The notes: a model not told the origin generated them from the letters alone. A stretch of DNA of 20,000 nucleotides from an uncultured virus (IMG/VR IMGVR_UViG_3300017963_000205) (IMGVR_UViG_3300017963_000205); one strand, 5' to 3'. Shown: positions 3,133 through 20,000, counted from the stretch's first letter. Program-made: numbers and translations.

Positions 3133-3688
3133 TGCCGCCACGGGCGGCGCCTACGAGAAAATCGGCGCCTTCATTGTGGCGCTTGGCAGGGAAGACTCCT
3201 CCGGCCTCCGGCGAGCCCTCTTTGAGAAACTGGAGTTGAACGACTATGAGGGTTTCTACGCGCTGGTGTCTGTGGGAGAGGACTCCTTCAAAACGTTGCG
3301 GCAGATCTGCGGCTTTGAGGTAGAGCAGACAGCTGTCACGCTGGAGGTTTCGCCGAACCCGGAAGGCCCCCGGTTTTTGAACTTCGTGGTCAAGGAGTAC
3401 ATCGGAGCCGAAGTCTACCTCAAGGACGAGGAGCGCGGACTGGTCGTGGCGAAAAACTACGAGGATCTGCAGGAAGGCACGGAGATCTTTGTGCCGGCCC
3501 TATTCGGCGGGTACTATAAGCTCCTGATACTCGACATCGACGACACCAAGAAGGTTGCAGGGGCGGCCTCCACCAAGGAGGAGACGGGCACGGCCGCAAC
3601 GCTCGAATACGACAAGGACGACCGTCACTGCTGGGTGGCGAACGGCATCTTCAATATGGATGCCATGAAGAGGTTGGATTTTCGCTAG
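3116..3688 (+). CDS. Hypothetical protein (190 aa), TAG stop
   Basis: GGAGG upstream of the ATG; protein-like composition; the TAG overlaps the AGGAGG SD of the next gene. Confidence 0.75.
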   Translation: MMVEVDAATGGAYEKIGAFIVALGREDSSGLRRALFEKLELNDYEGFYALVSVGEDSFKTLRQICGFEVEQTAVTLEVSPNPEGPRFLNFVVKEYIGAEVYLKDEERGLVVAKNYEDLQEGTEIFVPALFGGYYKLLILDIDDTKKVAGAASTKEETGTAATLEYDKDDRHCWVANGIFNMDAMKRLDFR

Positions 3689-3696
3689 GAGGCTTC

Positions 3697-4395
3697 ATGC
3701 CCGATTACTTCCTTTGCACGGGACCAGGACGAACGGCCACGCGCTGGCTGGCCCAGTATCTCGACAAAGCGACGAAGGCCAACGTCATGCATGACGAGTT
3801 TTTGCCGATCAACTTCGAGAGTTCCATGCGCCGCTGGAAAAGGGCGTCCATTCCGAAGATCGGCACTGTCAGCGGCGCGGCGCGTTATCATATCCCGCAG
3901 CTGTGGACCGCATTCAAGCCCGTTGTGGTGTTTCTCTGGCGTGAGCCTTTTGGGTTAATCAAGTCCCATGTGGAGATTCAGCTTCGCACGGGAAACACGC
4001 CGCGCGTCAACGAGACAGGCCACCGGCAGCCGCCGGGCTACGAGACGCTCGACATGCTCGTCCGGCGGACCGCTCAGATCCTTTTGGGCGATCTGGAAGC
4101 CTCGATCGGTATCTGCAAGTACCACAATATCCCCCATAATCACGTCTCGATGGAGGATTTCCTGACGCCGGCAGGCGCTGCCGCGCTAGCACGCATGGTT
4201 GGCGTCAAGCCGCCGAGTTACACGGAGATGGTGGTCAACAAGACACCGGATGCCGACCGAATCCCTCACCAGGATTGGTGGGAGGAACGAACGAGATCAC
4301 GCATCATGGCCCTGGTCAATTCGCTCGTGAACGTGCGGGAGGGCTATGACAAGGCGAAGCAGTGGGGAAGTTCCCTGGAGAAAGCAAGTGAATGA
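3697..4395 (+). CDS. Sulfotransferase-like P-loop-fold protein
   Basis: N-terminal FLCTGPGRTATRWLAQYL matches the 5'-PSB loop pattern (GxxRSGTxxL), and VVFLWREP matches the 3'-PB pattern (hhhhRxP). SD AGGAGG. Confidence 0.6.
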   Translation: MPDYFLCTGPGRTATRWLAQYLDKATKANVMHDEFLPINFESSMRRWKRASIPKIGTVSGAARYHIPQLWTAFKPVVVFLWREPFGLIKSHVEIQLRTGNTPRVNETGHRQPPGYETLDMLVRRTAQILLGDLEASIGICKYHNIPHNHVSMEDFLTPAGAAALARMVGVKPPSYTEMVVNKTPDADRIPHQDWWEERTRSRIMALVNSLVNVREGYDKAKQWGSSLEKASE

Positions 4396-4744
4396 GACTC
4401 GTTCAACCCTATCCCAGATGAAAGAGCGGGCGAGGCAGGCAGCCGAATACAGGGCGAACCAAACGCCCGATCCCGAGGAAGACATTCCCAGCGAGGTGCC
4501 CGAGGGGTCCTTGCGCGGTGCTGCTGGCGAACTGAGCGTTCGCGCTCGCTCGCTCACTCAGATCGCGCATGAGCTGGAGGAGCGGCTGGGGGCTGTTTTG
4601 GCAGATCCCCGCCCAGCGGAGACTGCGAAGGGGACAGAACCTTGCGGGCAGTGCGGGCTTGCCACGGAGCTGTTGCGTACGTCCCAGAAGTTTGGCCACG
4701 TGGAAGACAAGCTGACTGAGCTTTTGGAGCGGCTTGGAATATGA
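4388..4744 (+). CDS. Hypothetical coiled-coil protein
   Basis: GTG at 4388 after GGAG overlaps the upstream stop (start uncertain; ATG 4418 is an alternative). Heptad-like helices. Confidence 0.65.
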   Translation: MNETRSTLSQMKERARQAAEYRANQTPDPEEDIPSEVPEGSLRGAAGELSVRARSLTQIAHELEERLGAVLADPRPAETAKGTEPCGQCGLATELLRTSQKFGHVEDKLTELLERLGI

Positions 4745-6952: not shown

Positions 6953-9062
6953 CACCGTAAGTCTGACGAACTTCTGTCAGCATCCCCAACGCAGCGACGA
7001 ACTCGGGCCTGGCGTCATTGGGATCATCGGTCCCAATGGCGCCGGCAAATCCAATTACGTGAAGGCCATATTGCGAGCACTCACCGGCTCTTCGGGCAAT
7101 CCGGGCCGCAAGGAGGAAGACGTTTCCTGGGGTCAGGACAAGGGCGTCGTGGAGGTCGGGTTTACCGTTAACGGTCATTCCGGCTCGGTCCGGCGACAGT
7201 TGGCCAGCTCAAGCTGTCTGTTGAAGTACGGCGAGGAGACCGTTCGCACCGCGCGCGAAGTCGACCGCAAGATGGAGTCGCTGATTGGCGTGGACAAGCA
7301 CGTGCTCACGGACATGGTCTTCGTGCAGCAGGGCGCCATCGAGGGCATCCTCTTCCAGCGGCCCTCCGAGCGGGCCAAGGCGCTCCAGAACTTGTTTGGG
7401 ACCGCCTCGGCCGAAGCCTTGCGGGGGCTGTTGCTGGACGAGATCAACCACACGCACATCGAAAGCCGTTCGGAGCCGATCGACCGGTTGGAGAAGATGA
7501 TCGGGGATGCCGACGCCCGACTGGCCGAGATTGACGCACGGATTGCGGCCTACCCGCCGGCGGATGTCACCAACATCGAGAGGCTGCGCAGGAACATCAC
7601 CGAGTACAGGGCGCGTCTTCAGGCCACGGAGAACCTCCGTGAGGTCGAGAAACGCTTTGCTGCCAGTCGGGAGGAACTTTCAGGAATCCATTCCCAATTG
7701 TCGAAGCAGACATCCGACAGGGACATCATGAAGCGGGTCGTGGACGACGCCCGGTCCGACTACGAAGCCTCCCAGAAACGTGTGCAAGCCGAACAGACGT
7801 TTCAGTACAAGTTGTCCAGACGCGCCGAGCTTCTGCAGGAGAAGGCGGACTTGGAAGCTGCGCTGAAGCAGCCCGAACCACAGTGCGACGTCGACAAGGA
7901 GAAGCTGGACGAGCTGCGAGCACACTGCGAGGAGCTTCGAGCCTCCGTGAACGCCAGCCACAAGATCATCGGGCTGGCTGGGGCACTTGGCAGCGAAAAG
8001 GCGGTTTGCCCCACGTGCGACCAGCCCATAACCGAGGCGCACGTCGACAGCCACAAACTCAAGCTGGCCTCGGAGGAGCCGCAGCTGGGAATGTACGACA
8101 AAGACGTGCAGACCCGGGAAGCGGAGATCGAGAGCCATCGGGTAGCACACTTCAACTGGTGCGCGTCGCAGTACAACGCCAAGAAGGATGCTCAGCGCGT
8201 CGAGGAGGGTCTGAAGGCGCTTGGTGAGATCAAAGAGGCCGATGCCGACATTTCCAAGGACGTGAGTCTGATCAACGACTTCCAGAAGGCTGAGAAACTC
8301 CTTCAGGAGGCTGAGGTTGCGTTAAGCGGCCTGCAGGCCAGGTTCGACCAGCTGGACAGCCAGCAGGACCAGTTCATGGGGCAAATCAATGACCTGCGCA
8401 AGCAGGCCGGCGAGGAGCCGCTTCCAGACATTGCCAAGTTAGAGGAGGAACTGCGCTCGCTGGAAGAGACGCGCGAGGCCATCTCCCGTCTTCACGGGGA
8501 GAAGGTCGAGCTGGAACGCAACCGGACCGTCAACAAGCAGCAGTTGGAGATCTACCATCAGGAAGAGGCCGCCTTGAGCCAGTTGAAGGGGTGGCGGGAA
8601 CTGATGGAGCGCGTGCGCATGGTTCTTCATCGGGACCAGCTTCCGAACATCGTCGCTCAGGCATATCTGGGGGCGCTGAACAAGAAACTGGCCGAGTACC
8701 TGGCCATCTTCGAGAGCCCCTTCATGGCGCAACTGAAGACGGACATCTCAATCGAGTGCCAGTTCCCGGGTGGACACATTGCTGCGGCGGAGAGGCTGTC
8801 GGGCGGCCAGAAGGTGATGCTGGGCATCGCGTTTCGGTTCGCCATCTACGATCTCTTTGCCGAGAACCTGGGATTCATGGTTCTCGACGAGCCAACGGTG
8901 TATCTCGACACGGACCACGTGGAATCCGTGTTCACGCTGTTGGAAAGGGTGAAGAGTTATTCGGCCACGGCCGGTCTGCAGCTGATCATTCCCACGCACG
9001 AGGCGCGGCTGGCCGGGGTCCTTGATAAGGTGATCAGGCTTGGACTACCTGCTGCAGTGTGA
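6942..9062 (+). CDS. sbcC: SbcC/Rad50-like SMC ATPase
   Basis: Walker A GPNGAGKS, Q-loop FVQQG, coiled coils around a central zinc hook CPTC, signature LSGGQ, Walker B MVLDEPT, D-loop LD, H-switch PTH. Confidence 0.95.
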   Translation: MRIDTVSLTNFCQHPQRSDELGPGVIGIIGPNGAGKSNYVKAILRALTGSSGNPGRKEEDVSWGQDKGVVEVGFTVNGHSGSVRRQLASSSCLLKYGEETVRTAREVDRKMESLIGVDKHVLTDMVFVQQGAIEGILFQRPSERAKALQNLFGTASAEALRGLLLDEINHTHIESRSEPIDRLEKMIGDADARLAEIDARIAAYPPADVTNIERLRRNITEYRARLQATENLREVEKRFAASREELSGIHSQLSKQTSDRDIMKRVVDDARSDYEASQKRVQAEQTFQYKLSRRAELLQEKADLEAALKQPEPQCDVDKEKLDELRAHCEELRASVNASHKIIGLAGALGSEKAVCPTCDQPITEAHVDSHKLKLASEEPQLGMYDKDVQTREAEIESHRVAHFNWCASQYNAKKDAQRVEEGLKALGEIKEADADISKDVSLINDFQKAEKLLQEAEVALSGLQARFDQLDSQQDQFMGQINDLRKQAGEEPLPDIAKLEEELRSLEETREAISRLHGEKVELERNRTVNKQQLEIYHQEEAALSQLKGWRELMERVRMVLHRDQLPNIVAQAYLGALNKKLAEYLAIFESPFMAQLKTDISIECQFPGGHIAAAERLSGGQKVMLGIAFRFAIYDLFAENLGFMVLDEPTVYLDTDHVESVFTLLERVKSYSATAGLQLIIPTHEARLAGVLDKVIRLGLPAAV

Positions 9063-9930
9063 GGGGCACACGTATGTCAGGCGAGTGGAGGGGCCAAAAG
9101 GCTACCGTCTTTTGGCTCACCCCTCGCAGGTGCCCCTGATTGAATCTTGCGCCAAGCTCGGCGATACCCGATTCTGCTGTTCCAACCTTCTGCGCGGCTC
9201 AAACCTTATGGATGGCGAGCAGGTGGTGGACCGGATGACTTCGCTGGGAGAACCCGAATACGTTTTTAGGGATGATGTCCGTGACGGCTTGAAGTTTGCC
9301 GCTGCATACAACGAGACCGAGTTGAGAAGCAGCGGCGACGTTCAGCGGCTTCTTCTGCGCTTGCGCCATCACCCGGCCGTTTTTGGTGGACTGGGTTTTG
9401 CTTTCAGAAACATGTTCACACCACATATAGCCCGTCTTCTGGCGGAGATCTACGACATACGGCGTTTCTTCAAGCCCGGGCATTCCAGAAGCATTTCCCG
9501 GCTGAAGAACTACTTCCGAGTGGTCACGCCGAAGCGCGTACGGAGCCTGCACGGAAGGACGACCCAGACGCTGGGTGACGTCCGTTTGATGATCGCGTTG
9601 GACGCATGGCGGGATCACCCGATGACGGGCGACGCCATTGGGGAGGACCGGCCCACGGATGCATACTTTCCGGGGTTCTACTATGTGATGTGCAACGACA
9701 TGGAGCAGGCTCACATAGATCCTCATGTTTTCACGGCTTATGCCGCCTGGCGCACGACGGTCGCGTTCCTGCAGTTCGTCTTCTGGACGTGGGGCCAGCA
9801 GGTGGGGGCACCTCGGTTCGATCCCGAAAAACTCTTTCGTGGGCAGTACATTTGTGAGGGAGATGTGGCTCAAAGTTTCCGCAAGTATATCAGTCAGCTC
9901 GATCTTGACGACATGGAGATGCTGTTTTAA
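9040..9930 (+). CDS. Hypothetical protein containing a degenerate IS110/IS116 (Transposase_20)-like HhH segment
   Basis: ARLLAEIYDIRRF...SRLKNYFRV resembles the AAxILAEIGDIxRF...LxxYxGL pattern. The TTG start is uncertain. Confidence 0.55.
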   Translation: MDYLLQCEGHTYVRRVEGPKGYRLLAHPSQVPLIESCAKLGDTRFCCSNLLRGSNLMDGEQVVDRMTSLGEPEYVFRDDVRDGLKFAAAYNETELRSSGDVQRLLLRLRHHPAVFGGLGFAFRNMFTPHIARLLAEIYDIRRFFKPGHSRSISRLKNYFRVVTPKRVRSLHGRTTQTLGDVRLMIALDAWRDHPMTGDAIGEDRPTDAYFPGFYYVMCNDMEQAHIDPHVFTAYAAWRTTVAFLQFVFWTWGQQVGAPRFDPEKLFRGQYICEGDVAQSFRKYISQLDLDDMEMLF

Positions 9931-9933
9931 GCT
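9905..9933 (+). promoter_or_regulatory. Candidate sigma70-type promoter for the lipoprotein-glycosylase-tRNA-Pth cluster
   Basis: TTGACG (9905-9910), 17-nt spacer, TAAGCT (9928-9933), just upstream of SD TAAGGAGG and ATG 9955. Confidence 0.5.
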
Positions 9934-9954
9934 ATACGGGTAAGGAGGAATCCC

Positions 9955-10251
9955 ATGCGAAAAATCCTCGCAGCCCTCGCTCTCACCGTTCTTCTGACCG
10001 GGTGTGTAGACGACCGCATCAAGCGCCAGATCAGTCTGACCAACACTCGGACGCAGGTGGCTGCCAAGGAGTTCAATGAGGCAGCCACGCCAGAGGAAAA
10101 GGTGAAGGTCGCCGACAGATACATCAACGGGGTGCCCGAAAGAGAGGTGCCTGGGATGAAGCACATGACCCAGGTGGCCGACGACTACTTTCAGGGCAAG
10201 GACCCGAAGGACCCGTTGAACATCCTCAAGAAAAAGAAGCCGGACGAGTAG
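9955..10251 (+). CDS. Small lipoprotein (98 aa), TAG stop
   Basis: MRK + hydrophobic stretch + lipobox LTG-C; strong SD TAAGGAGG. Confidence 0.8.
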   Translation: MRKILAALALTVLLTGCVDDRIKRQISLTNTRTQVAAKEFNEAATPEEKVKVADRYINGVPEREVPGMKHMTQVADDYFQGKDPKDPLNILKKKKPDE

Positions 10252-10254
10252 AAG

Positions 10255-10848
10255 GTGGCTTCACTTCTCCGGGAACGCACAGATGAAGAGCTGGAATGGT
10301 TTCTCTTCTTCTCGATCGCTGTTGCCGGCAAAACAGGACTCATTGTCGAGCAGGCCGTCGAGCGCTTCTTCCAGTTTGCGCATGAGCGGCCTTTTGAATA
10401 CATACGACAGTTGATGGCTGATGGTTGGTACACGGCGGCCCTGCGCGCGGCGCGGGTCGGTCAGTACACCAAGATGAACCGAGCCATGAGGCACATCATT
10501 CAAAGCGGGCTCAACCCACGGACCTGCACGCTGGATGAGCTGGAAGCCGTGCCTGGCATCGGGCCGAAGACGGCCCGGTTCTTTCTGCTTTACACGCGCC
10601 CCGGGCAGCGCGTGGCCGCGCTTGACATTCACATCCTGCGGTTTCTGCGCAGGATCGGCGTGGACGCGCCCGACAACACGCCACAGAACCCAAAAACATA
10701 CCGTCGGCTGGAGAAAGCGTTTCTGGATGCTGCCGACGGGTTGGAGATGACCCCTGCCGAGCTGGACGACGTTCTCTGGCGGGGAAGCTCATACAAGCCC
10801 AAAGCGCCTGTAGCTCAGCTGGCAGAGCCGGGTCTTCTAAAGTCCTGA
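10255..10848 (+). CDS. HhH-GPD superfamily DNA glycosylase/AP lyase-like protein (8-oxoG glycosylase-like)
   Basis: HhH motif LEAVPGIGPKTARFFL with Lys, a downstream AALDIHIL Asp motif, and C-terminal YRRLE...ELDDVLW. GTG start with a weak SD. Confidence 0.75.
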   Translation: MASLLRERTDEELEWFLFFSIAVAGKTGLIVEQAVERFFQFAHERPFEYIRQLMADGWYTAALRAARVGQYTKMNRAMRHIIQSGLNPRTCTLDELEAVPGIGPKTARFFLLYTRPGQRVAALDIHILRFLRRIGVDAPDNTPQNPKTYRRLEKAFLDAADGLEMTPAELDDVLWRGSSYKPKAPVAQLAEPGLLKS

Positions 10849-10880
10849 GAGCGTAGGTTCGAGTCCTACCGGGCGCACCA
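10804..10880 (+). tRNA. tRNA with CUA anticodon (amber suppressor), encoded CCA end
   Basis: Acceptor GCGCCTG/CGGGCGC; D arm GCTC-AGCTGGCA-GAGC; anticodon arm GGGTC-TTCTAAA-GTCCT (CTA at 10837-10839; one U-U mismatch, one G-U); T arm GTAGG-TTCGAGT-CCTAC; ends ACCA. Confidence 0.88.
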
Positions 10881-10890
10881 AACCACGAAG

Positions 10891-10973
10891 GGAGGCATCA
10901 TGGGATAGGGCTGTCGCTGTCGTGATCCTCCACGTTTCAGAGCCGTAGACCATTTAACCCTGAATCTGGAGGA
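10891..10973 (+). promoter_or_regulatory. Putative translational switch leader: SD + ATG-GGA-TAG mini-ORF with two mutually exclusive hairpins
   Basis: GGAGG 10891-10895, ATG 10900, TAG 10906-10908. CCTCC (10927-10931) can pair with the upstream GGAGG or, as TCCTCCA, with TGGAGGA (10967-10973), the SD of the next gene. Confidence 0.55.
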
Positions 10974-10980
10974 AATTGGA

Positions 10981-11586
10981 ATGGAAATCACAGTAAGAGA
11001 TGTGGCCGTTCACCACCATCAACGGGTATGTGAGCTGCTGATGGAAACCAAAGACGAGCTGGACGAGATCATGGAGCTGGAGTCGGCCGAAGGCGTGACC
11101 AAGCCCGGTGAACTCGTCTGCAAGAAGAAGAATGGCCGCAGGGTGTACAGCATCTTCTGCGGAGCGCCCGAGGGTTCGAAGGCAAAGGAGGCGTTCAAAG
11201 TCTACGCGCGGTATGAGGGGCTCCGGCACCAATCCAGGATCTGGCACAACATCACGTACGCGTTGAAGCTGTGCGAGCGGCATGGGGTGAGCCCTGAGTC
11301 TGTTGCATTTTCGGGGGTTGCTCTTGCCAAAAGCATGAAAACCGAGAATCACCGCAAGGACTTCTGTGCGGCCACAATGCACATTGCTCCGAAGGCTATG
11401 GGGCGCGGTGAGGTGCGGGCGCTCACATTGGGCGCAGCCAAACAGTTGTTCAAGATCAAGGCGCGCCTCGATAATGGAGGCTACCGCTACGTCCGTGAGT
11501 GGAAGGAGAAGCGGGAAACCGAACGCGCCGAGCGCCAGCAGCAGATGGCAGACACAAAATCTGGGAGGGAACCCGTAACGGTTTAA
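10981..11586 (+). CDS. Hypothetical basic protein (201 aa) upstream of the Pth2-like gene
   Basis: SD GGAGG at 10968-10972; its TAA stop overlaps the TAAGGAGGT SD of the next gene. Confidence 0.8.
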   Translation: MEITVRDVAVHHHQRVCELLMETKDELDEIMELESAEGVTKPGELVCKKKNGRRVYSIFCGAPEGSKAKEAFKVYARYEGLRHQSRIWHNITYALKLCERHGVSPESVAFSGVALAKSMKTENHRKDFCAATMHIAPKAMGRGEVRALTLGAAKQLFKIKARLDNGGYRYVREWKEKRETERAERQQQMADTKSGREPVTV

Positions 11587-11596
11587 GGAGGTAGCC

Positions 11597-11911
11597 ATGA
11601 AGATGTACGTGTTGACCCGGCGTGACCTCACGCCGGCGCAGCGCGTCGTCCAATCATGCCACGCCGTCGCGCAGCTTGTGCTGCGCAGCGGCACGGACCC
11701 ATAGGTCCGGCATTGGGGGGACGCGCATCAGACGCTCGTCGTATTGGGCGTGAACGACCAGGAAGAGCTGGAACGTTGGGAGTCGAGGCTCAAGCAGGAG
11801 AGGGTACACCATGAGGTGTTCGTCGAACCGGATTTCGGCGAACAGAAAACAGCTTTGGCGGTGAGCCCGGCTACCGACCCACGACTATTCAGAGAGCTGC
11901 GGCTTCTCTGA
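11597..11911 (+). CDS. Pth2-like peptidyl-tRNA hydrolase (104 aa) with an in-frame TAG at codon 36 (readthrough gene or pseudogene); absent from the ORF track
   Basis: Reads MKMYVLTRRDLTPAQRVVQSCHAVAQLVLRSGTDP*VRHWGDAHQTLVVLGVNDQEELERWESRLKQERVHHEVFVEPDFGEQKTALAVSPATDPRLFRELRLL. Pth2-fold hallmarks (YvlxRxDL, QxxHA, W, VVL, EPD, TALA, terminal LxLL) lie on both sides of the TAG at 11702-11704. Perfect SD TAAGGAGGT. Confidence 0.85.
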
Positions 11912-11918
11912 AACGGGA

Positions 11919-11937
11919 CGCCCGGCTCGGCCGGGCG
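11919..11937. other. GC-rich hairpin downstream of the Pth2-like gene (no U-tract)
   Basis: CGCCCGGC-TCG-GCCGGGCG, a perfect 8-bp inverted repeat. Confidence 0.6.
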
Positions 11938-11976
11938 CCTCCATTCGGATTGGTCCCGGCCAGAAAGGAGCACAAG

Positions 11977-12303
11977 ATGGCTTTTGATTGGGATCAAGTC
12001 CTTGAGGTGGCAGAGGACAGCGGCAAAGAGCTGCTGGATCTTCTGAAGCCATACATTCCCGCTTTGAAGCGGGAAGGCAAAGAGGTCTATGAGGGTTTCC
12101 TGAAGCATCTGTTCGATGCCGACTGGGAGGCCATAGACCGTCAAATGTACGAACACATGACGCCGGAAGAGCGCGAGGTTCTCGATTCACAAGTCTACAA
12201 GGACGCCATACAGGCCACGCGCGCCAAGTTCCGGCAAAAGGAGCTGGTGCGTGAGGTCATGTTCAGGGTCAGCCTCCGACTCTTGATGGTGGCAATCCTT
12301 TAA
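11977..12303 (+). CDS. Hypothetical protein (108 aa) with a hydrophobic C-terminal tail
   Basis: ATG 11977 after SD AAGGAG; ends VSLRLLMVAIL-TAA. Confidence 0.75.
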   Translation: MAFDWDQVLEVAEDSGKELLDLLKPYIPALKREGKEVYEGFLKHLFDADWEAIDRQMYEHMTPEEREVLDSQVYKDAIQATRAKFRQKELVREVMFRVSLRLLMVAIL

Positions 12304-12331
12304 GCGCTCCTTCCGGCGAAAGGAGGAGCAC

Positions 12332-12646
12332 ATGCAAACGGCGAAGCGATGCCAGATCATCCTATCCCCCCGGTGTTTCGATGACATGTTTGGAAGACGC
12401 ATGAAAATCGTGAACGCCTTTTTAAGTTGGGGGCGGTTAGTCATCAATGTAGAGGGTGTCGGCTTTACCGGAGACTCCGCCGAGGAGGTCATGGTGGAGG
12501 AGTTCGATTCTCTCCCGCAGTTGCGAAACTGGATTGGGAGGCAGCTGACCAATGGAAGTGGTAGCCACGCTCCGGTTTCTAACGCCCAGCCTCGGCAACG
12601 CAAGAGGCGAGCGTCGGGACCGCATGCTGTACAGCACCGAAGGTGA
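12332..12646 (+). CDS. Hypothetical protein (104 aa)
   Basis: Strong SD AAGGAGGAG; the last 95 nt overlap the next gene. Confidence 0.6.
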   Translation: MQTAKRCQIILSPRCFDDMFGRRMKIVNAFLSWGRLVINVEGVGFTGDSAEEVMVEEFDSLPQLRNWIGRQLTNGSGSHAPVSNAQPRQRKRRASGPHAVQHRR

Positions 12647-13001
12647 GGTGGTGTATCTGCAATCCTGGTGGCGGTCGAGCCTGGGCTATGCCGCGCAGGC
12701 TCTCTGCCGCCACCAGGGGACAATAGACAAGATCCAGGCGGACCCTGTTGTGCGGGGCCCGGTATCCATACACAAGAGGTTCTATAGTCCGACTTCGTTT
12801 AAGGAGCATGAAGCGTTCCTCGCCGGAACCGAGGTTGAGGTTCGCTTCATGCTGCCAAAGAAACTGCGTTTGGAGGCGTTCAGGGAGCTTCTTGAAACGG
12901 CCGGCAAGTACGCCGGTATCTCCCCGTACGGCTACAAGCAGGATTACGGGAGGTTCATCGTTGTCGACGTCCGTTCCGGTTCAAATCACAAGGATCGGTG
13001 A
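12552..13001 (+). CDS. Stand-alone minimal RAMP (Cas7/Csm3-like RRM fold) protein
   Basis: N-terminal strand TLRFLTPSLG, central HEAFLAGTEVEVRFML, and a C-terminal helix plus Gly-rich loop LLETAGKYAGISPYGYKQDYGRFIV. This is the motif order typical of RAMPs. SD GGGAGG. Confidence 0.6.
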   Translation: MEVVATLRFLTPSLGNARGERRDRMLYSTEGEVVYLQSWWRSSLGYAAQALCRHQGTIDKIQADPVVRGPVSIHKRFYSPTSFKEHEAFLAGTEVEVRFMLPKKLRLEAFRELLETAGKYAGISPYGYKQDYGRFIVVDVRSGSNHKDR

Positions 13002-16407: not shown

Positions 16408-17440
16408 ATTGAACCCAAAGCTGTTTGCAGCTTTGGAGAAACGCTTCGGGAAAGTGCTGATTTCCAACCCCGGCGAGCGTTTAGTGGAGCGCAAGATACC
16501 CGACCCGGTGCGGCCAGGACGACACAAGCAGTTGATCCTTCGCAGCGGGGAGTATTACAGAGTGGACTGCCCCTATTGCAGCGACAAACGGGGCAGGTTG
16601 TACATCAACTACAGATGGAACACGCGCACCCGGAATGGCGACCGTTTTGGCCGCTTTTTGGCCGTCTGCTTCAATGAAGGGTGTGACCTGAGTGGCTTGG
16701 ACATGGAACTCGGGGCTCTGGCGAAGAACTGGCCGGTCGTGGACCGTCCCTACACAAACAAGCCGGACAGCGGGCCGGAGTTTGCCCCGCAGGTCATGCC
16801 GGGAGTCTGTCTCCCGTTGGACACGCTGCCGCCGGAGCACGAGGCGTGCAAGTACGTTCGTGAGAAACGGGGGTTTGACCCGGTCGAGCTGGGGCGGATG
16901 TGGGGCGTTTCCTATTGCGTCCACTGCGGGGTGACCGACAAGACGCCATATCCCGGGCTGGTCCGGGGGAGGCTGGTCATTCCCATCTGGCGTTCGGGTG
17001 TTCTGGTTGGGTGGCAAACAAGGGCTCTCAATGAGCACGACAGCCCGAAGTATTACACCATGCCGGGTTTCCCGAAGTCGAGGATGCTTTTCAACCAGGA
17101 CCGCGCGCAGCAGTATCGCTTTGGCGTTGTAGTAGAGGGGGTCTTTGACGCTTTCCGCGTCGGCGACCGTGCCGTGGCGCTGTTCGGCAAATCGATGAGT
17201 CAGACGCAGCGCGAACTTGCCGTTGCTTACTGGGGGCAGGGGGCGCTGTGCATCGTTCTGGATGATGACGCGACGGAGGACATGGACCGTCTCAGCCAGG
17301 TCATGGACCCGATGAAGTTCAAGGACGGGTCCTTTATTGTTAGGCTGCCAATCGGGAAAGATCCGGGCAACATGGATCGAGACGAATTGTGGAGGTTGAT
17401 CGCGTCAAATGCCCGAAATCATGGAGTACGGCTTGCCTGA
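16400..17440 (+). CDS. DnaG-like primase (Zn-binding + TOPRIM)
   Basis: CPYC...CFNEGC, RLVIPI, GWQTR, PKY, VVEGVFD, LDDD, KDP. Confidence 0.9.
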   Translation: MDELNPKLFAALEKRFGKVLISNPGERLVERKIPDPVRPGRHKQLILRSGEYYRVDCPYCSDKRGRLYINYRWNTRTRNGDRFGRFLAVCFNEGCDLSGLDMELGALAKNWPVVDRPYTNKPDSGPEFAPQVMPGVCLPLDTLPPEHEACKYVREKRGFDPVELGRMWGVSYCVHCGVTDKTPYPGLVRGRLVIPIWRSGVLVGWQTRALNEHDSPKYYTMPGFPKSRMLFNQDRAQQYRFGVVVEGVFDAFRVGDRAVALFGKSMSQTQRELAVAYWGQGALCIVLDDDATEDMDRLSQVMDPMKFKDGSFIVRLPIGKDPGNMDRDELWRLIASNARNHGVRLA

Positions 17441-20000
17441 TTACGCAAGCGCCAGAGACAAGACAGCTCCAAAACCGGCTCCCGAGCCGGTTCAAGAGCT
17501 GGAACCTGTGCCGACGCCGGAACCTACGAGCGTGTATGCTCGTTTTCCGCTCACGCAGTCCTACATGGAAGCCTCGACGATGTACGGGATGGACCCGGTT
17601 GCCGTGGCTGAACAACTCCTTCACCGGGCAACGGACGTTCCCATCATCGACGTGAAGGGCGAGCCGCTTCGGCCAGTGCTCTGGATTCCCAGCTGCGTGC
17701 TGGGGACGGGGCGCAAATTGCTGCCGGGGGTGGATTTTCATACGAGGCTGATGGTTGTGGGTAAGCGCCCCGGCGTTGACGAGATCAGGGACCGTCGGGT
17801 CTTCGTCGGCGAGACGGGAAGGCTGCTCAGGGACGTGGCCAACGAAGTGGGAATGGGTTCCGAAATCGAAGCTGCGTTCGGGACCAACGTGTTGCGCTTC
17901 ATCCCCTTTGACGGTGGCAAGACGTTGAGGCCCCACCACGTTCGGGACTGCCTGCCGCTTCTGGCGCGTGAGATCGACCTCATCAAACCGCAGTTCATCC
18001 TGCTCTTGGGCACGGATGCGGTGAAGGTCTTCTTTGGCAGCAAACAAACCCTCCAGCGCGTGAGGCATCGCTTGTTCCTCATGCGAAGCATTCAGGACAT
18101 GGGCACCAATCGCGTCATCGACGCCAGCAAGATCTCCGTCGACAATCCCGTCTGGCGGGACAGCGTTAAAATATACGCGACTGTGCACCCCGCCGCTGTT
18201 CTCAGGGAAGGGGGCCTTCGAGACGGCTTCAAGTCTGACATGGCCCAAATGCGCATGATCATGGGCGGTCACGTCTCCAACCCCACGCCCGGCGAGGGCA
18301 TGGATTACCGCTACGTCAATACGGCACGGGACCTGCAGGCTGTCATTCAGCAGGCTGAACAGGAGAGCCCGGTGATCGCCGTTGACTGTGAGTGGGGTGA
18401 TGGTGAGTGGTCCCGAGGCGGTAAGCTGCGCTGTATCCAGTTCTCGTGGAAGCCGGGCAGCGCTTGTGTGGTGATCCTTCGTCACGCGGACATGGTCGAC
18501 TCCCAGGCGCCGACTGAACGACTGGAGATGCTCCGGCTGCTCCGAGAGTATTTCATCAAGATGCACATCGTTGGCCACAATTTCAGGGCTGACGCTCCGT
18601 GGCTACAGGAGTTGGGCATTGACGTTATGCCAAATCTTTGCTTCGACACCATGTTGGCCGATCACGCGTTGAACGAGAACGCGGAACACGCATTGGAGTC
18701 CTGCGCGGCCCGTTACACCAACATGGGCCGTTACGACTGGGATCTGAACGAGTGGGTTCGGCGCAACAATGTGGAGAAGGGAGAAGGCTACCGGGACGTG
18801 CCCGATGAGCTGCTCTTTCCGTACGGTGCCGCCGACGCGGATGCGACGCTTCGCTGCTACGTGACATTGCGTGACATGTTGCAGAAGCCGGAGAACAACG
18901 GGGTTGCCCGACTGTTCTACACGACGGTCATGCCGGCTAACTACCCGCTCTACGAGATGGAACGCAACGGGCTGCTGGCCGATTTCGAGCGCATGGAGGT
19001 TCTGGTTCACCTCTATGCCAACCGGAAGGAAGAGCTGGTTCAGGAGTTACGGGATCTGGTCAAGAAGCCAGAATACAACTTCCGTTCGATTCCGCAGACC
19101 CAGCGGCTGTTGTATGGCCCGATCTCCGAAGGCAACCTTGGGCTGACGCCGGTCAAGACGACCGAGAAGCCCGCCAGGATGTGGTTTGACGTGCCGGAGT
19201 TCGACCTCAAGCGCGTCAGCCCCTCCACGGATGCCGAATCGCTCGAAGCACTGGCGCCGGAGCATGAGGCTGCCAGTAAGCTGCGTGACGTGAAGATCGT
19301 CGATCAGATCTGCAAGAACTTCCTCCGTCCCAAGCAGGATGACGGTCACGGCGGCCTTATCTATAAGGGCGGTGTGACAGGGGAGGTGGACCCGGACGGT
19401 CGGGTGAGGACGAGGCTGTCGCAGATGTCCGAGACGGGGCGGCAGCGCTCGTCCGCGCCCAACATGCAGAACCTCCCGAAGCGGCAGGACAAGGAAACCA
19501 GCCGCATCATGGGAGACGACGTTCACAAGATCCGTAGTTGTTTTGTTGCCCCACCAGGCAGCGTGTTGATCGAGGCCGACTACAAGTCGGCCGAGATCTT
19601 CACGCTTGGCTACCTCGCAAATGACATGAAGTTGGTCGAGGACGCGAAGGCCGACCTGCACGCACGCGGCGCGGTAACCCGAATGGGTTGCCCGCCATGG
19701 GAGGGCTTCGACCAGGGCAAGCCTCCACCAAAGGAATGGTTGGACACTCACAAGGCCATGCGCGTGGCCAGCAAGACCATCAGCTTCGGCATCCCGTACC
19801 AGCGGGGACCGAAGGCCATCGCGCGCGAGATTGAAAAGTCCACACATGGCGCCGTTCCGTGCGACACGCCACGGGCCCAGTCGTTCATCGACGGATTCTA
19901 TGACGACTACAAGGGTGTTGGCACATACGTGGATTACTGCAAGGATTGTGTGGTTACGGAACCGCACTTCATCGAGAACCCGTACGGCCGTCGGCGAAGG
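17409..20000 (+). CDS. polA: Family A DNA polymerase with N-terminal uracil-DNA-glycosylase-like domain and 3'-5' exonuclease; 3' truncated; absent from the ORF track
   Basis: Open frame of 864 codons to the window end. UDG-like region: MVVGKRPG, FVGETG, TNVLRF, HPAAVLR. Exonuclease motifs: AVDCE, HNFRAD, YGAADAD. Polymerase motifs: ETGR, NMQNLP, motif A DYKSAE, DLH, motif B RVASKTISFGIPYQ, NPYGRRR. ATG 17421 is an alternative start. Confidence 0.93.
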   Translation, partial: MPEIMEYGLPDYASARDKTAPKPAPEPVQELEPVPTPEPTSVYARFPLTQSYMEASTMYGMDPVAVAEQLLHRATDVPIIDVKGEPLRPVLWIPSCVLGTGRKLLPGVDFHTRLMVVGKRPGVDEIRDRRVFVGETGRLLRDVANEVGMGSEIEAAFGTNVLRFIPFDGGKTLRPHHVRDCLPLLAREIDLIKPQFILLLGTDAVKVFFGSKQTLQRVRHRLFLMRSIQDMGTNRVIDASKISVDNPVWRDSVKIYATVHPAAVLREGGLRDGFKSDMAQMRMIMGGHVSNPTPGEGMDYRYVNTARDLQAVIQQAEQESPVIAVDCEWGDGEWSRGGKLRCIQFSWKPGSACVVILRHADMVDSQAPTERLEMLRLLREYFIKMHIVGHNFRADAPWLQELGIDVMPNLCFDTMLADHALNENAEHALESCAARYTNMGRYDWDLNEWVRRNNVEKGEGYRDVPDELLFPYGAADADATLRCYVTLRDMLQKPENNGVARLFYTTVMPANYPLYEMERNGLLADFERMEVLVHLYANRKEELVQELRDLVKKPEYNFRSIPQTQRLLYGPISEGNLGLTPVKTTEKPARMWFDVPEFDLKRVSPSTDAESLEALAPEHEAASKLRDVKIVDQICKNFLRPKQDDGHGGLIYKGGVTGEVDPDGRVRTRLSQMSETGRQRSSAPNMQNLPKRQDKETSRIMGDDVHKIRSCFVAPPGSVLIEADYKSAEIFTLGYLANDMKLVEDAKADLHARGAVTRMGCPPWEGFDQGKPPPKEWLDTHKAMRVASKTISFGIPYQRGPKAIAREIEKSTHGAVPCDTPRAQSFIDGFYDDYKGVGTYVDYCKDCVVTEPHFIENPYGRRRR

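What the first reader, a model, noticed from the sequence alone, without database searches (positions are those of the whole stretch)
9905..11937. Local amber-suppression module: CUA tRNA clustered with three in-frame TAG codons and a peptidyl-tRNA hydrolase
Seen: a CUA-anticodon tRNA (10804-10880) and in-frame TAGs at 10249, 10906 and 11702, each followed by continued coding sequence in the same frame. All lie behind one candidate promoter. The large genes (collagen, SbcC, helicases, primase, PolA) have no internal TAG, and all but two of the called genes with a visible stop end in TGA/TAA. Known: some phages reassign or suppress TAG and carry suppressor tRNAs, and Pth enzymes recycle peptidyl-tRNA released from stalled ribosomes. 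Inference: this is a compact circuit in which the element's own suppressor tRNA gates a few translation-related genes, acting as a timing or feedback switch rather than a window-wide code change.
Basis: partly seen in the sequence, partly recalled or inferred. Interest (0 to 1): 0.9.

Follow-up and report, generated by a model that had tools for sequence, protein, structure and literature searches.

The report
Amber suppressor tRNA gating a Pth2-like gene
A large phage carries a tRNA that reads the stop codon TAG next to a small hydrolase gene interrupted by one TAG, and the same pairing recurs in many unrelated phages, which suggests a compact switch that ties the enzyme's production to stop-codon read-through.

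Summary
The tRNA with anticodon CUA at 10804-10880 is real (ARAGORN; Rfam 53.3 bits). Only one of the three TAGs clearly interrupts a gene. TAG 11702 is codon 36 of a 104-codon Pth2-fold gene (Pfam PTH2 E 1.7e-11; AlphaFold pLDDT 98; TM 0.84 to archaeal Pth2). TAG 10249 is the ordinary stop of a lipoprotein gene. TAG 10906 lies in a probable leader, ATG-GGA-TAG, upstream of the conserved start at 10981.

The new result concerns relatives. I fetched 21 loci from public collections using this protein family alone. 19 carry a tRNA-CUA and 2 carry a tRNA-UCA, all on the same strand, and every measured gap is at most 1.3 kb. In 12 of 12 loci where ARAGORN found a single tRNA, that tRNA is CUA. The hydrolase gene carries an in-frame TAG in 10 of the 21 loci, which fall into 5 lineages. 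In two of those lineages the TAG sits in the same alignment column as here. Two relatives read whole (234 kb, 133 kb) use the standard code.

My reading is a conserved suppressor-tRNA and Pth2-like module in which hydrolase synthesis depends on amber read-through. Whether the rest of this 186-kb contig is recoded could not be tested.

The parts
9955..10251 (+). Lipoprotein gene (signal peptide with LLTGC lipobox) that ends in TAG at 10249-10251. This is an ordinary stop, not a recoded codon.
   Evidence: Coding signal +0.71 bits per codon. Weak LPAM_1 match (E 0.026, 15.4 bits, below its 20-bit cut-off) over residues 1-17. The next gene's family profile starts just behind the TAG.
10255..10848 (+). 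HhH / Ogg-like DNA glycosylase gene that starts at GTG 10255. Its last 15 codons and its TGA stop (10846-10848) lie inside the tRNA gene.
   Evidence: phrog_11575 E 1.7e-43, profile positions 11-185. Pfam Ogg-HhH and HHH. Sequence read directly.
10804..10880 (+). tRNA with anticodon CUA (amber suppressor type). It has a class I cloverleaf, an encoded CCA, discriminator A, a U.U mismatch in the anticodon stem and a 6-nt variable region.
   Evidence: ARAGORN. Rfam RF00005 at 53.3 bits. Alignment with phage tRNA-Arg(UCU) and tRNA-Lys(UUU).
10889..10908 (+). Shine-Dalgarno-like GGGAGG followed by the mini-ORF ATG-GGA-TAG, in frame with the 10981 gene and with no stop between them. It is either a leader mini-ORF or a suppressor-dependent alternative start.
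   Evidence: Sequence. It is one of 8 SD-preceded mini-ORFs on the + strand and the only one I see in an intergenic stretch. The frame behind it has low coding signal.
10926..10973 (+). Predicted hairpin that pairs UCCUCCA (10926-10932) with the Shine-Dalgarno UGGAGGA (10967-10973) of the 10981 gene. This is a lead only.
   Evidence: MFE fold. The whole stretch is no more stable than shuffles (z = 0.27).
10981..11586 (+). Gene for a 201-aa protein of unknown family, lying between the tRNA and the Pth2-like gene.
   Evidence: Coding signal +0.45 bits per codon. No Pfam or PHROG match. One relative at 43% identity starts with the same 12 residues.
11597..11911 (+). Pth2-fold (peptidyl-tRNA hydrolase 2-like) gene of 104 codons with an in-frame TAG at 11702-11704 (codon 36, at the start of helix 2, just after the loop that follows helix 1).
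   Evidence: Pfam PF01981 at 44.7 bits against a cut-off of 23, aligned over residues 1-95. 938 homologues at E<=1e-3, mostly about 100 aa and spanning the site. AlphaFold pLDDT 98.1. Foldseek TM 0.84 to 2zv3. TAG in the same column in L007 and L014.

Best explanation
The window is the replication region of a large phage. It is positions 113503-133502 of a 186-kb metagenome contig. It contains a conserved two-part module: an amber-suppressor tRNA (anticodon CUA) and, 717 bases downstream on the same strand, a Pth2-fold hydrolase gene whose codon 36 is TAG.

Shown. The tRNA is real. The TAG is inside the domain, and the gene shows coding signal in one frame on both sides of it. The family is physically linked to stop-anticodon tRNAs across many phage lineages. 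The TAG recurs in the family, in the same alignment column in two other fetched lineages and at other positions in further lineages.

Inferred. The full-length hydrolase is made only when the phage's own charged suppressor tRNA outcompetes release factor 1 at that codon. The amount of hydrolase would then track the level of suppression. It works as a sensor, by the same logic as the in-frame stop codon in the release-factor-2 gene prfB (recalled).

Most likely purpose (inference). The hydrolase deals with by-products of read-through: dropped-off or stranded peptidyl-tRNA from ribosomes that run past TAG stops or abort on very short ORFs. Alternatively it acts on the suppressor itself, which would make a negative feedback loop. 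The suppression is partial and local, not a change of genetic code. TAG 10249 is an ordinary stop, and TAG 10906 is at most a leader mini-ORF.
For: The tRNA.

The TAG is inside the domain: Pfam alignment over residues 1-95; a profile of 59 family members matches archaeal Pth2 2zv3 at E 4.8e-11; fold TM 0.84; same-frame coding signal on both sides. No ATG, GTG or TTG follows the TAG until codon 50, so reinitiation is unlikely.

The TAG is conserved. A relative in another study's metagenome, differing at 7 of 188 bases, shows a synonymous change in the codon before the TAG (11701 A>G) and a change at 11712, with none listed in the TAG itself. L007 (36% GC, 54% protein identity) has T-D-P-TAG-V where the window has T-D-P-TAG-V. 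L014 has its TAG in the same column and L008 in the same loop.

Further in-frame TAGs. The L010/12/13/15/19 clade has a TAG at codon 5. In L043 a TAG sits at a domain junction that is continuous in L011 and L045, with no start codon behind it. Four database representatives begin exactly one residue after the TAG column.

Linkage. 19 of 21 family loci have a tRNA-CUA in the held flank and 2 of 21 have a tRNA-UCA. All lie on the gene's strand. The gaps measured for 19 of the 21 loci are 28-1223 bases, and in L055/L056 the tRNA starts about 210 bases behind the read-through frame. In 12 of 12 loci where ARAGORN found a single tRNA, that tRNA is CUA. Rfam confirms 12 of 12 checked.

Rescue theme. 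A tmRNA gene lies directly behind the hydrolase gene in L009, L016 and L017 by Rfam, and in L016, L017 and L018 by ARAGORN.

Not a change of code. The window's coding density is 0.923 under code 11 and 0.874 under code 15. The whole relatives G001 and G002 give 0.936/0.917 and 0.904/0.921, with TAG ending 60 of 325 and 31 of 153 greedy ORFs. The 8 flagged in-frame TAGs I read in context all had a Met a few residues downstream, as at a gene boundary (7 clear; the short, low-complexity G002 36286 frame is uncertain); the ninth flagged is the hydrolase gene's own TAG in G002.
Against: Only 20.9 kb of the 186-kb contig could be read, so late genes rich in TAG elsewhere are not excluded.

Two genes in the window end in TAG. 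A working suppressor would extend them by 90 and 199 residues, which is a cost.

About half of the family loci (11 of 21) have no TAG in the gene, so gating is not obligatory.

Of 8 loci from named phages with more distant homologues (30-35% identity), 5 have no tRNA within 4 kb: RAS14, Xoo-sp13, XacN1, phiAS5 and RaK2.

The family lacks the GKGK loop of canonical Pth2. A conserved Gln aligns where I recall the catalytic Lys to be, so hydrolase activity is unproven.

The tRNA has a U.U mismatch in its anticodon stem, and the amino acid it carries is unknown.

The TAG column is variable in homologues (Q, S, R, L, G, F, V). The closest full-length homologue has Q there, so a recent CAG>TAG mutation is formally possible for this one genome.

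There is no RNA or protein evidence of any kind.
Confidence: 0.6

Rival explanations
1. Genome-wide or late-gene TAG reassignment (code-15-like). Under this reading the tRNA-CUA is the code-change device of a recoded phage, and the Pth2-like TAG is one of many in-frame TAGs. Most of the others would lie in structural and lysis genes outside the window.
For: This is the published pattern for recoded phages: replication genes in standard code, late genes recoded, and suppressor tRNAs present (Borges et al. preprint 10.1101/2021.08.26.457843, passages read). The window is a replication region: SbcCD, helicases and a UDG-PolA fusion. Only about 11% of the contig was visible.
Against: TAG terminates 2 genes in the window, and behind TAG 3686 the read-through frame is non-coding at -0.52 bits per codon. 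Code 15 lowers the window's coding density. The two relatives read whole that carry the same module, including the in-frame TAG, are standard-coded and use TAG for about 18-20% of stops. The published route to recoding starts from low-GC genomes with rare TAG stops, whereas this contig is about 60% GC.
Confidence: 0.2
2. The Pth2-like gene is a fresh pseudogene, for example by a CAG>TAG mutation. The tRNA-CUA would then be unrelated to it, or non-functional.
For: The closest full-length homologue has Q at this column, which is one transition away from TAG. The XacN1 paper found no target for that phage's two tRNA-CUA genes (PMC5852040, passages). The abstract of the phage Summit announcement says the same of its one predicted suppressor tRNA; its anticodon was not seen (PMC9022506, abstract in the listing).
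Against: The coding signal is intact behind the TAG. A diverged relative keeps the TAG while the neighbouring codon changes synonymously. The same-column TAG occurs in L007 and L014, and other in-frame TAGs occur in three more lineages, always beside a tRNA-CUA.
Confidence: 0.04
3. TAG 10906 is also a true gated start. Translation of the 10981 gene would begin at ATG 10900 and need the suppressor at codon 3, or read-through would melt a hairpin that hides the 10981 Shine-Dalgarno. Two genes would then be gated, not one.
For: A strong SD (GGGAGG) lies 5 nt before ATG 10900. The mini-ORF is in frame with the 10981 gene with no stop between them. A predicted 7-bp anti-SD:SD pairing exists. There is a parallel in the L010/12/13/15/19 clade, where the gene after the hydrolase gene starts ATG-AAA-TAG in 5 of 5 loci.
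Against: The 24 codons behind the TAG have GC3 of 0.38 and no coding signal. ATG 10981 has its own SD. The one relative begins with the identical MEITVRDVAVHH. The fold is no more stable than shuffles. SD-preceded mini-ORFs occur 8 times on this strand by chance-like counts.
Confidence: 0.3
4. The tRNA is a pyrrolysine tRNA, as ARAGORN labels it.
For: ARAGORN prints 'tRNA-Pyl' for any CTA anticodon.
Against: The tRNA aligns end to end with the general tRNA model, with a normal D-loop, a 6-nt variable region and a 5-bp anticodon stem. As I recall, pylT is atypical in these features. No Pyl synthesis or PylS family appeared in the Pfam scans of 19 window frames, from which the collagen-like frame 3-2819 was left out. 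The tRNA body resembles phage tRNA-Arg and tRNA-Lys.
Confidence: 0.01

Closest known systems
Suppressor tRNAs and 'code-change modules' of stop-codon-recoded phages (crAss-like, Lak, Jade, Agate; Borges et al., preprint 10.1101/2021.08.26.457843, passages read)
   Same: A phage-encoded tRNA reads a stop codon. In-frame stops make some phage genes depend on that tRNA. The proposed role is post-transcriptional control of phage gene expression.
   Different: In those phages many late genes are recoded, the module genes themselves are in standard code, and the genomes are low-GC. Here and in the two relatives read whole, the code is standard. The one clear target is the neighbouring Pth2-like gene itself. 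The partner is a Pth2-fold protein, not a release factor or an aminoacyl-tRNA synthetase; 'peptidyl' occurs 0 times in that preprint.
Autoregulation of release factor 2 (prfB) by an in-frame stop codon (recalled, not from a call)
   Same: A gene for a factor acting at the end of translation carries an in-frame stop. Its own expression therefore reports how stops are being read.
   Different: prfB uses a UGA and a +1 frameshift and senses RF2 itself. Here the event is plain read-through by a dedicated tRNA, and the direction of any feedback is unknown. There is no homology.
PTH2-like genes in tRNA arrays of cluster C mycobacteriophages (Bxz1 gp154), with tmRNA (Morgado and Vicente 2018, PMC5966550, passages read)
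   Same: It is the same protein family at about 34% identity, sitting among phage tRNAs. That paper already suggests 'extra rescue factors' go along with extra tRNAs. In Bxz1 the first tRNA behind gp154 (annotated 'tRNA-OTHER') has anticodon CTA by ARAGORN.
   Different: The word 'suppressor' occurs 0 times in that paper. No in-frame TAG is annotated in gp154. There the gene sits in an array of 17 tRNAs, whereas here and in 12 other loci the suppressor is the only tRNA nearby.
Orphan suppressor tRNAs of cultured phages: two tRNA-CUA in XacN1 (PMC5852040, passages read); one predicted suppressor tRNA in Summit (PMC9022506, abstract seen in a search listing only; anticodon not seen)
   Same: A standard-code phage with a suppressor tRNA and a Pth-like gene somewhere in the genome.
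   Different: Those authors report finding no target gene. Here a target is identified next to the tRNA. In XacN1 the family member (ORF364) has no tRNA within 4 kb.
Lambda bar minigenes and Pth (recalled, not from a call)
   Same: A two-codon ORF behind a Shine-Dalgarno (ATG-GGA-TAG at 10900) is the kind of element whose translation releases short peptidyl-tRNAs and creates a demand for Pth activity.
   Different: No test was made here. The mini-ORF may be chance, and bar acts in hosts that are defective in Pth.

Membership tests
tRNA (Rfam RF00005), amber-suppressor type | Cloverleaf scoring above the family's gathering score | tested here: met
   53.3 bits against 29, model positions 1-71. 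ARAGORN agrees.
tRNA (Rfam RF00005), amber-suppressor type | Anticodon CUA at positions 34-36 in a 7-nt loop with U33 and a purine at 37 | tested here: met
   The loop is UUCUAAA. An alternative 8-nt loop reading UAGA was considered and rejected, because the Pth2-like frame needs triplet reading and its TAG is followed by G.
tRNA (Rfam RF00005), amber-suppressor type | Is aminoacylated and suppresses UAG in vivo | not testable with these tools
   No RNA run holds the stretch. The amino acid is unknown. By my recall of identity elements the tRNA lacks A20 and C35, which argues against Arg; Lys or Gln are plausible.
Pfam PTH2 (PF01981), peptidyl-tRNA hydrolase 2 | Sequence score above the curated cut-off over the whole domain | tested here: met
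   44.7 bits against 23; residues 1-95 on profile positions 1-103 of 115.
Pfam PTH2 (PF01981), peptidyl-tRNA hydrolase 2 | Pth2 alpha/beta fold | tested here: met
   pLDDT 98.1. The top 12 Foldseek chains are all Pth2 or Bit1 entries, with TM 0.81-0.84.
Pfam PTH2 (PF01981), peptidyl-tRNA hydrolase 2 | Canonical active-site residues (Lys of the GKGK loop, Asp of the DAG motif; residue roles recalled, not from a call) | tested here: inconclusive
   In the profile alignment to 2zv3 the GKGK loop is shortened and a conserved Gln aligns with the second Lys. An invariant E77-P-D79 lies at the Asp motif.
Pfam PTH2 (PF01981), peptidyl-tRNA hydrolase 2 | Hydrolyses peptidyl-tRNA | not testable with these tools
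   A biochemical assay is needed.
Stop-codon-reassigned phage (NCBI code 15-like) | Coding density clearly higher with TAG read as sense, and many genes with in-frame TAG | tested here: not met
   For the window, density is 0.923 under code 11 and 0.874 under code 15, and there is one domain-internal TAG. The other 165 kb of the contig were not available.
Stop-codon-reassigned phage (NCBI code 15-like) | TAG not used as a terminator | tested here: not met
   TAG 3686 and TAG 10249 end genes, and the frame behind 3686 is non-coding.
Pyrrolysine system | Atypical pylT structure together with pylS/pylBCD genes | tested here: not met
   The cloverleaf is standard. No such family appeared in the Pfam scans of 19 window frames, from which the collagen-like frame 3-2819 was left out. 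The rest of the contig is unseen.
Proposed 'suppressor tRNA plus Pth2-like' module (defined here) | A family member within about 1.5 kb of a stop-anticodon tRNA on the same strand | tested here: met
   In the window the gap is 717 bases between the two genes (698 to the start of the read-through frame). Among loci fetched by protein alone, 21 of 21 meet the feature: 19 with CUA and 2 with UCA. Among loci of named phages with distant homologues, 3 of 8 meet it.
Proposed 'suppressor tRNA plus Pth2-like' module (defined here) | In-frame TAG in the family member | tested here: met
   The window has it at codon 36. Among the fetched loci, 10 of 21 have it: L007, L008, L042, L014, L010, L012, L013, L015, L019 and L043. 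All the in-frame stops are TAG.

The most novel reading that the evidence does not exclude
Phages that otherwise use the standard code carry a widespread, self-contained translation-control module. It consists of a stop-codon suppressor tRNA (amber, sometimes opal) and a Pth2-fold enzyme, sometimes with a tmRNA. An in-frame TAG in the enzyme's own gene serves as a sensor of suppressor activity. The pair would set or buffer the level of stop-codon read-through in the infected cell. It would be an autoregulatory circuit of a kind not described before, and it would explain the 'orphan' suppressor tRNAs of cultured phages such as Bxz1-like mycobacteriophages.
Probability: 0.35. Interest if true: 0.9.

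Novelty: new variant of a known kind. Interest (0 to 1): 0.78.

Why it matters
Phage suppressor tRNAs are usually explained as tools for a wholesale change of genetic code. In standard-code phages they are left unexplained, with 'no target found'.

Here the target sits next door, and it is a gene whose product handles peptidyl-tRNA. The pairing holds across phages from 33% to 60% GC.

If the reading is right, it gives a testable function to a common family that is annotated only as 'hydrolase' or 'peptidyl tRNA hydrolase'. It gives a reason for orphan suppressor tRNAs. It offers a natural, compact read-through sensor of interest for work on genetic-code expansion.

It also matters for annotation. 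Gene callers split these genes at the TAG; database fragments begin exactly one residue behind the TAG column.

Tried and rejected
Genome access. No whole genome is held for the window. The rest of the 186-kb contig therefore stayed unseen.

Searches that found nothing. An exact 60-mer from the window's end is absent from viral contigs. Close relatives were sought in viral contigs with three window proteins and with fragment P0020, without result. The word-based protein search with the Pth2-like protein found nothing. Earlier findings of this scan held nothing by place, words or sequence.

RNA evidence. No RNA holder was listed for the stretch.

Alignments too diverse. Alignments A3 and A5 were too diverse for locus searches, so I used the smaller A4 and single proteins instead. 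Loci L044 and L046 were spurious short matches and were dropped from all counts; neither has a tRNA.

Ideas considered and dropped. Quadruplet (UAGA) decoding through an 8-nt anticodon loop was dropped, because the Pth2-like frame needs a triplet and its TAG is followed by G. Homology between the 201-aa protein and the N-terminal domains fused to the family in L011 and L043 was not found (E 3.9 and 34). Termination followed by reinitiation behind the TAG is unlikely because no start codon follows. The Pyl reading was rejected.

Method limits. The crude scans for in-frame stops cannot see a TAG within 25-40 codons of a gene end. In the GC-rich window they also flag antisense frames. They only exclude heavy recoding.

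Literature. No paper in the held library contains both 'PTH2' and 'suppressor tRNA' (0 papers). Searches found none that link the two. A search for Pth2 catalytic residues gave no usable passage, so the residue roles I give are recalled.

Full report
OBSERVATION

ARAGORN finds one tRNA in the window, at 10804-10880 on the + strand, with anticodon CTA. Rfam's general tRNA model matches it end to end at 53.3 bits against a gathering score of 29. The match shows one non-standard pair (U.U) in the anticodon stem, a 6-nt variable region and an encoded CCA. TAG triplets stand at 10249, 10906 and 11702, each in frame with an open frame downstream. What they are differs from case to case.

CONTEXT

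All convincing genes are on the + strand, and G+C is about 0.60. The genes comprise:
- a collagen-like repeat protein;
- an SbcD-like phosphoesterase;
- an SbcC/SMC-like ATPase;
- a DEAD/ResIII helicase;
- a fusion of a uracil-DNA-glycosylase domain, a 3'-5' exonuclease and a family A polymerase.

This is the replication region of a large phage. An exact 40-mer of the tRNA finds the window on a 186,023-base metagenome contig, at positions 113503-133502. No genome is held for the window, and the record could not be searched further. About 89% of the element stayed unseen.

THE THREE TAGS

TAG 11702 is codon 36 of a 104-codon frame (11597-11911) preceded by AAGGAGG.
- Pfam PTH2 matches residues 1-95 across the TAG (E 1.7e-11; 44.7 bits against a cut-off of 23).
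- A codon-usage model trained on ten confident stretches of window genes gives +0.44 bits per codon before the TAG and +0.36 after it, in the same frame.
- No ATG, GTG or TTG follows in frame until codon 50.

TAG 10249 ends a lipoprotein gene (MRKILAALALTVLLTGC...). The next gene's family profile (phrog_11575, E 1.7e-43) starts at the GTG three bases further on. This is a gene boundary that happens to be in frame.

TAG 10906 is the third codon of ATG-GGA-TAG, which lies behind a good Shine-Dalgarno 19 bases after the tRNA.
- The 24 codons that follow have GC3 of 0.38, against 0.72 in genes, and no coding signal.
- ATG 10981 has its own Shine-Dalgarno.
- The only relative of the downstream protein (43% identity) begins with the identical MEITVRDVAVHH.
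- I read it as a leader mini-ORF at most. A predicted pairing of UCCUCCA with the 10981 Shine-Dalgarno is a lead, not evidence (z = 0.27).

A fourth TAG, at 3686, is a plain terminator. The frame behind it is non-coding at -0.52 bits per codon.

READS

Logan contigs of two runs, which may be the source data, match 9000-13000 with no difference at depth of about 10. A third sample holds identical pieces that include 10192-10342.

A fourth run, from another study, holds a relative. Its piece over 11650-11837 differs at 7 of 188 bases. The differences include 11701 A>G (CCA to CCG, synonymous, in the codon before the TAG) and 11712 A>G. None is listed in the TAG itself. That table omits 6 rows, so this is good evidence but not absolute.

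THE FAMILY AND ITS NEIGHBOURS

Read with TAG as a residue, the protein finds 938 proteins at E<=1e-3 among 1.84 billion representatives. Most are about 100 residues long and span the TAG site. AlphaFold with 59 of them gives pLDDT 98.1. The 12 best Foldseek matches are all archaeal or eukaryotic Pth2 or Bit1 structures, with TM 0.81-0.84.

I then fetched DNA from public collections using only protein motifs of this family:
- 16 loci from IMG/VR;
- 1 locus from the species genomes, which is the same phage as L008;
- 4 more true family loci found with two fragment queries. Two spurious short matches were dropped.

Of these 21 loci, 19 hold a tRNA with anticodon CTA and the other 2 (near-identical to each other) hold one with TCA. 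All are on the gene's strand. The gaps measured for 19 of the 21 loci are 28-1223 bases, and in L055/L056 the tRNA starts about 210 bases behind the read-through frame. In the 12 loci where ARAGORN finds a single tRNA, it is the CTA one in 12 of 12. Rfam confirms all 12 stop-anticodon tRNAs that I re-checked.

By protein similarity the loci fall into about ten lineages, with G+C from 0.33 to 0.57. In the 234-kb record behind L007, the CUA tRNA stands alone in mid-genome while the other five tRNAs cluster at the contig start. In L009, L016 and L017 by Rfam, and in L016, L017 and L018 by ARAGORN, a permuted tmRNA gene lies directly behind the family member.

Among eight loci of named phages with more distant homologues (30-35% identity):
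- Bxz1 has a CTA tRNA 306 bases behind gp154, where it is annotated 'tRNA-OTHER';
- a huge-phage assembly has a CTA tRNA;
- Lak-B5 has a TTA-anticodon tRNA;
- RAS14, Xoo-sp13, XacN1, phiAS5 and RaK2 have no tRNA within 4 kb.

The linkage is therefore strong but not universal.

THE TAG RECURS

Every in-frame stop found in family members is TAG.
- L007 reads ...T-D-P-TAG-V-Q-D-W where the window reads ...T-D-P-TAG-V-R-H-W.
- L014 has its TAG in the same alignment column.
- L008 (and L042, the same phage) has it in the same loop.
- Five loci of one low-GC clade have ATG, three varying codons, then TAG at the start of the gene. In these the next gene starts ATG-AAA-TAG.
- In L043 a TAG sits at the junction of two domains that form one continuous frame in L011 and L045, and no start codon follows it.

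That makes 10 of 21 loci, in five lineages and at four or more positions. In addition, four database representatives begin exactly one residue after the window's TAG column, as a gene caller would produce. Sites tolerant of any residue, varied flanks and a kept TAG argue for selection on the stop codon itself.

NOT A CHANGE OF CODE, AS FAR AS CAN BE SEEN

The window's coding density falls from 0.923 to 0.874 when TAG is read as sense. I read two relatives whole: G001, 234 kb, with the same-column TAG, and G002, 133 kb.
- They give 0.936/0.917 and 0.904/0.921 under code 11 and code 15.
- TAG ends 60 of 325 and 31 of 153 greedy ORFs.
- A scan for stops with coding signal on both sides flagged no more TAG than TAA.
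- The 8 flagged TAGs that I read in context all had a Met a few residues downstream, as at a gene boundary. Seven are clear; the short, low-complexity G002 36286 frame is uncertain. The ninth is the hydrolase gene's own TAG in G002.

That scan is blind to TAGs near gene ends.

THE tRNA'S MAKE-UP

The nearest phage tRNAs are Arg(UCU) of Bacillus phage G and DSS3_MAL1 (81-82% identity) and Lys(UUU) (about 78%). The window's tRNA shares the string CTTCTAA with the Arg(UCU) anticodon loops, but the stem register is shifted by one, which turns UCU into CUA.

By recalled identity rules it lacks A20 and C35, so Arg is unlikely. Lys or Gln are plausible. This cannot be settled here. The suppressor tRNAs of the other loci have quite different bodies, so the partnership is with the anticodon, not with one tRNA lineage.

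MECHANISM

Shown: a real CUA tRNA; a Pth2-fold gene that needs TAG to be read; conserved linkage; a recurrent TAG.

Inferred: the hydrolase is made in proportion to amber suppression, which makes the TAG a sensor.

There are two directions between which I cannot decide.
(a) Feed-forward protection. Read-through of ordinary TAG stops, which end about a fifth of the greedy ORFs in the two relative phages read whole, sends ribosomes into 3' ends. Very short ORFs release peptidyl-tRNA. Both create work for a peptidyl-tRNA hydrolase and for tmRNA, and a tmRNA gene is indeed adjacent in three lineages.
(b) Negative feedback. The enzyme acts on the suppressor's own acyl or peptidyl form and caps read-through.

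There is one caveat on the chemistry. The family lacks the GKGK loop of canonical Pth2 and has a conserved Gln where I recall the catalytic Lys to be, although E77-P-D79 is invariant.

COMPARISON AND NOVELTY

Suppressor tRNAs that gate recoded late genes are known (preprint 10.1101/2021.08.26.457843, passages). PTH2-like genes and tmRNA within mycobacteriophage tRNA arrays have been noted, with the comment that extra rescue factors may be needed (PMC5966550, passages). Orphan suppressor tRNAs with no identified target are reported for XacN1, with two tRNA-CUA (PMC5852040, passages). One is also reported for Summit, with one predicted suppressor tRNA, seen as an abstract in a listing only, anticodon not seen.

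I found no paper in the held library that links this family to suppressor tRNAs or reports the in-frame TAG. The searches were made, and 0 papers hold both 'PTH2' and 'suppressor tRNA'. Subscription journals and supplements are not covered.

I file it as a new variant of a known kind.

LIMITS

- Only 11% of the contig was seen.
- There are no expression data.
- The locus counts include close relatives, so lineages rather than loci are the independent units.
- E-values of the locus searches are relative to candidate stretches only.
- My density and in-frame scans are crude.

Noticed in passing
window 10804-10848: The HhH glycosylase frame has no stop before the tRNA gene. It runs 45 bases into the tRNA and ends at a TGA in the 3' strand of the anticodon stem. 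If the tRNA is cut out of the transcript, the upstream message would lose its stop codon. That would make it a natural source of non-stop ribosomes next to a Pth2-like gene.
   Followed up: partly
window 10830-10846: The tRNA shares the string CTTCTAA with the anticodon loops of phage tRNA-Arg(UCU) genes, and also shares their acceptor and T arms. The stem register is shifted by one base, so the anticodon reads CUA. This may be a route from an Arg tRNA to an amber suppressor.
   Followed up: partly
L009 4274-4663; L016 4247-4598; L017 and L018 about 4299-4656: A permuted tmRNA gene lies directly behind the Pth2-like gene, with the tRNA-CUA 0.5-1.2 kb upstream. The result is a three-part set: suppressor, hydrolase, tmRNA.
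   Followed up: partly
L010 596-850 and the same gene in L012, L013, L015, L019: The 84-codon gene after the Pth2-like gene starts ATG-AAA-TAG-ATT in 5 of 5 loci. The Pth2-like gene itself has TAG-ATT at codon 5. The shared TAGATTAA may be a signal of its own.
   Followed up: no
L050 4657-4730 (Mycobacterium phage Bxz1, gt155): The feature annotated 'tRNA-OTHER, tRNA-like product', 306 bases behind gp154 (the 'peptidyl tRNA hydrolase' of cluster C phages), is called by ARAGORN as a tRNA with anticodon CTA.
   Followed up: partly
L053 3341-3413 (Prevotella phage Lak-B5): A tRNA with anticodon TTA (ochre type) lies about 590 bases upstream of the family member in a Lak phage.
   Followed up: no
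window 17409-20000: A single frame joins a uracil-DNA-glycosylase-superfamily domain, a 3'-5' exonuclease and a family A DNA polymerase.
   Followed up: no
window 3-2819: A collagen-like Gly-X-Y repeat protein of more than 900 residues (about 69% G+C over the first 2 kb) ends in a non-repeat C-terminal domain. It is probably a fibre.
   Followed up: no
G001 and G002 gene boundaries (for example G001 114812, 197632, 163032): Many TAG stops are followed directly by GAG or GAA and then a start a few codons later. The stop overlaps the next gene's Shine-Dalgarno (TAGGAG), and adjacent genes then sit in one frame. This mimics in-frame TAGs.
   Followed up: partly
L043 5413-6183 compared with L011 and L045: An N-terminal domain of unknown family (motif FR.[KR]HVA...G[RQ]..E..DSGD) is fused to the Pth2-like domain in L011 and L045. 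In L043 the two are separated by a TAG. Longer two-domain forms also occur in L009, L016-L018 and L020-L022. The annotated frame over the match is likewise longer (about 260-280 aa) in RAS14, Xoo-sp13 and XacN1, but I did not examine their N-terminal parts.
   Followed up: partly
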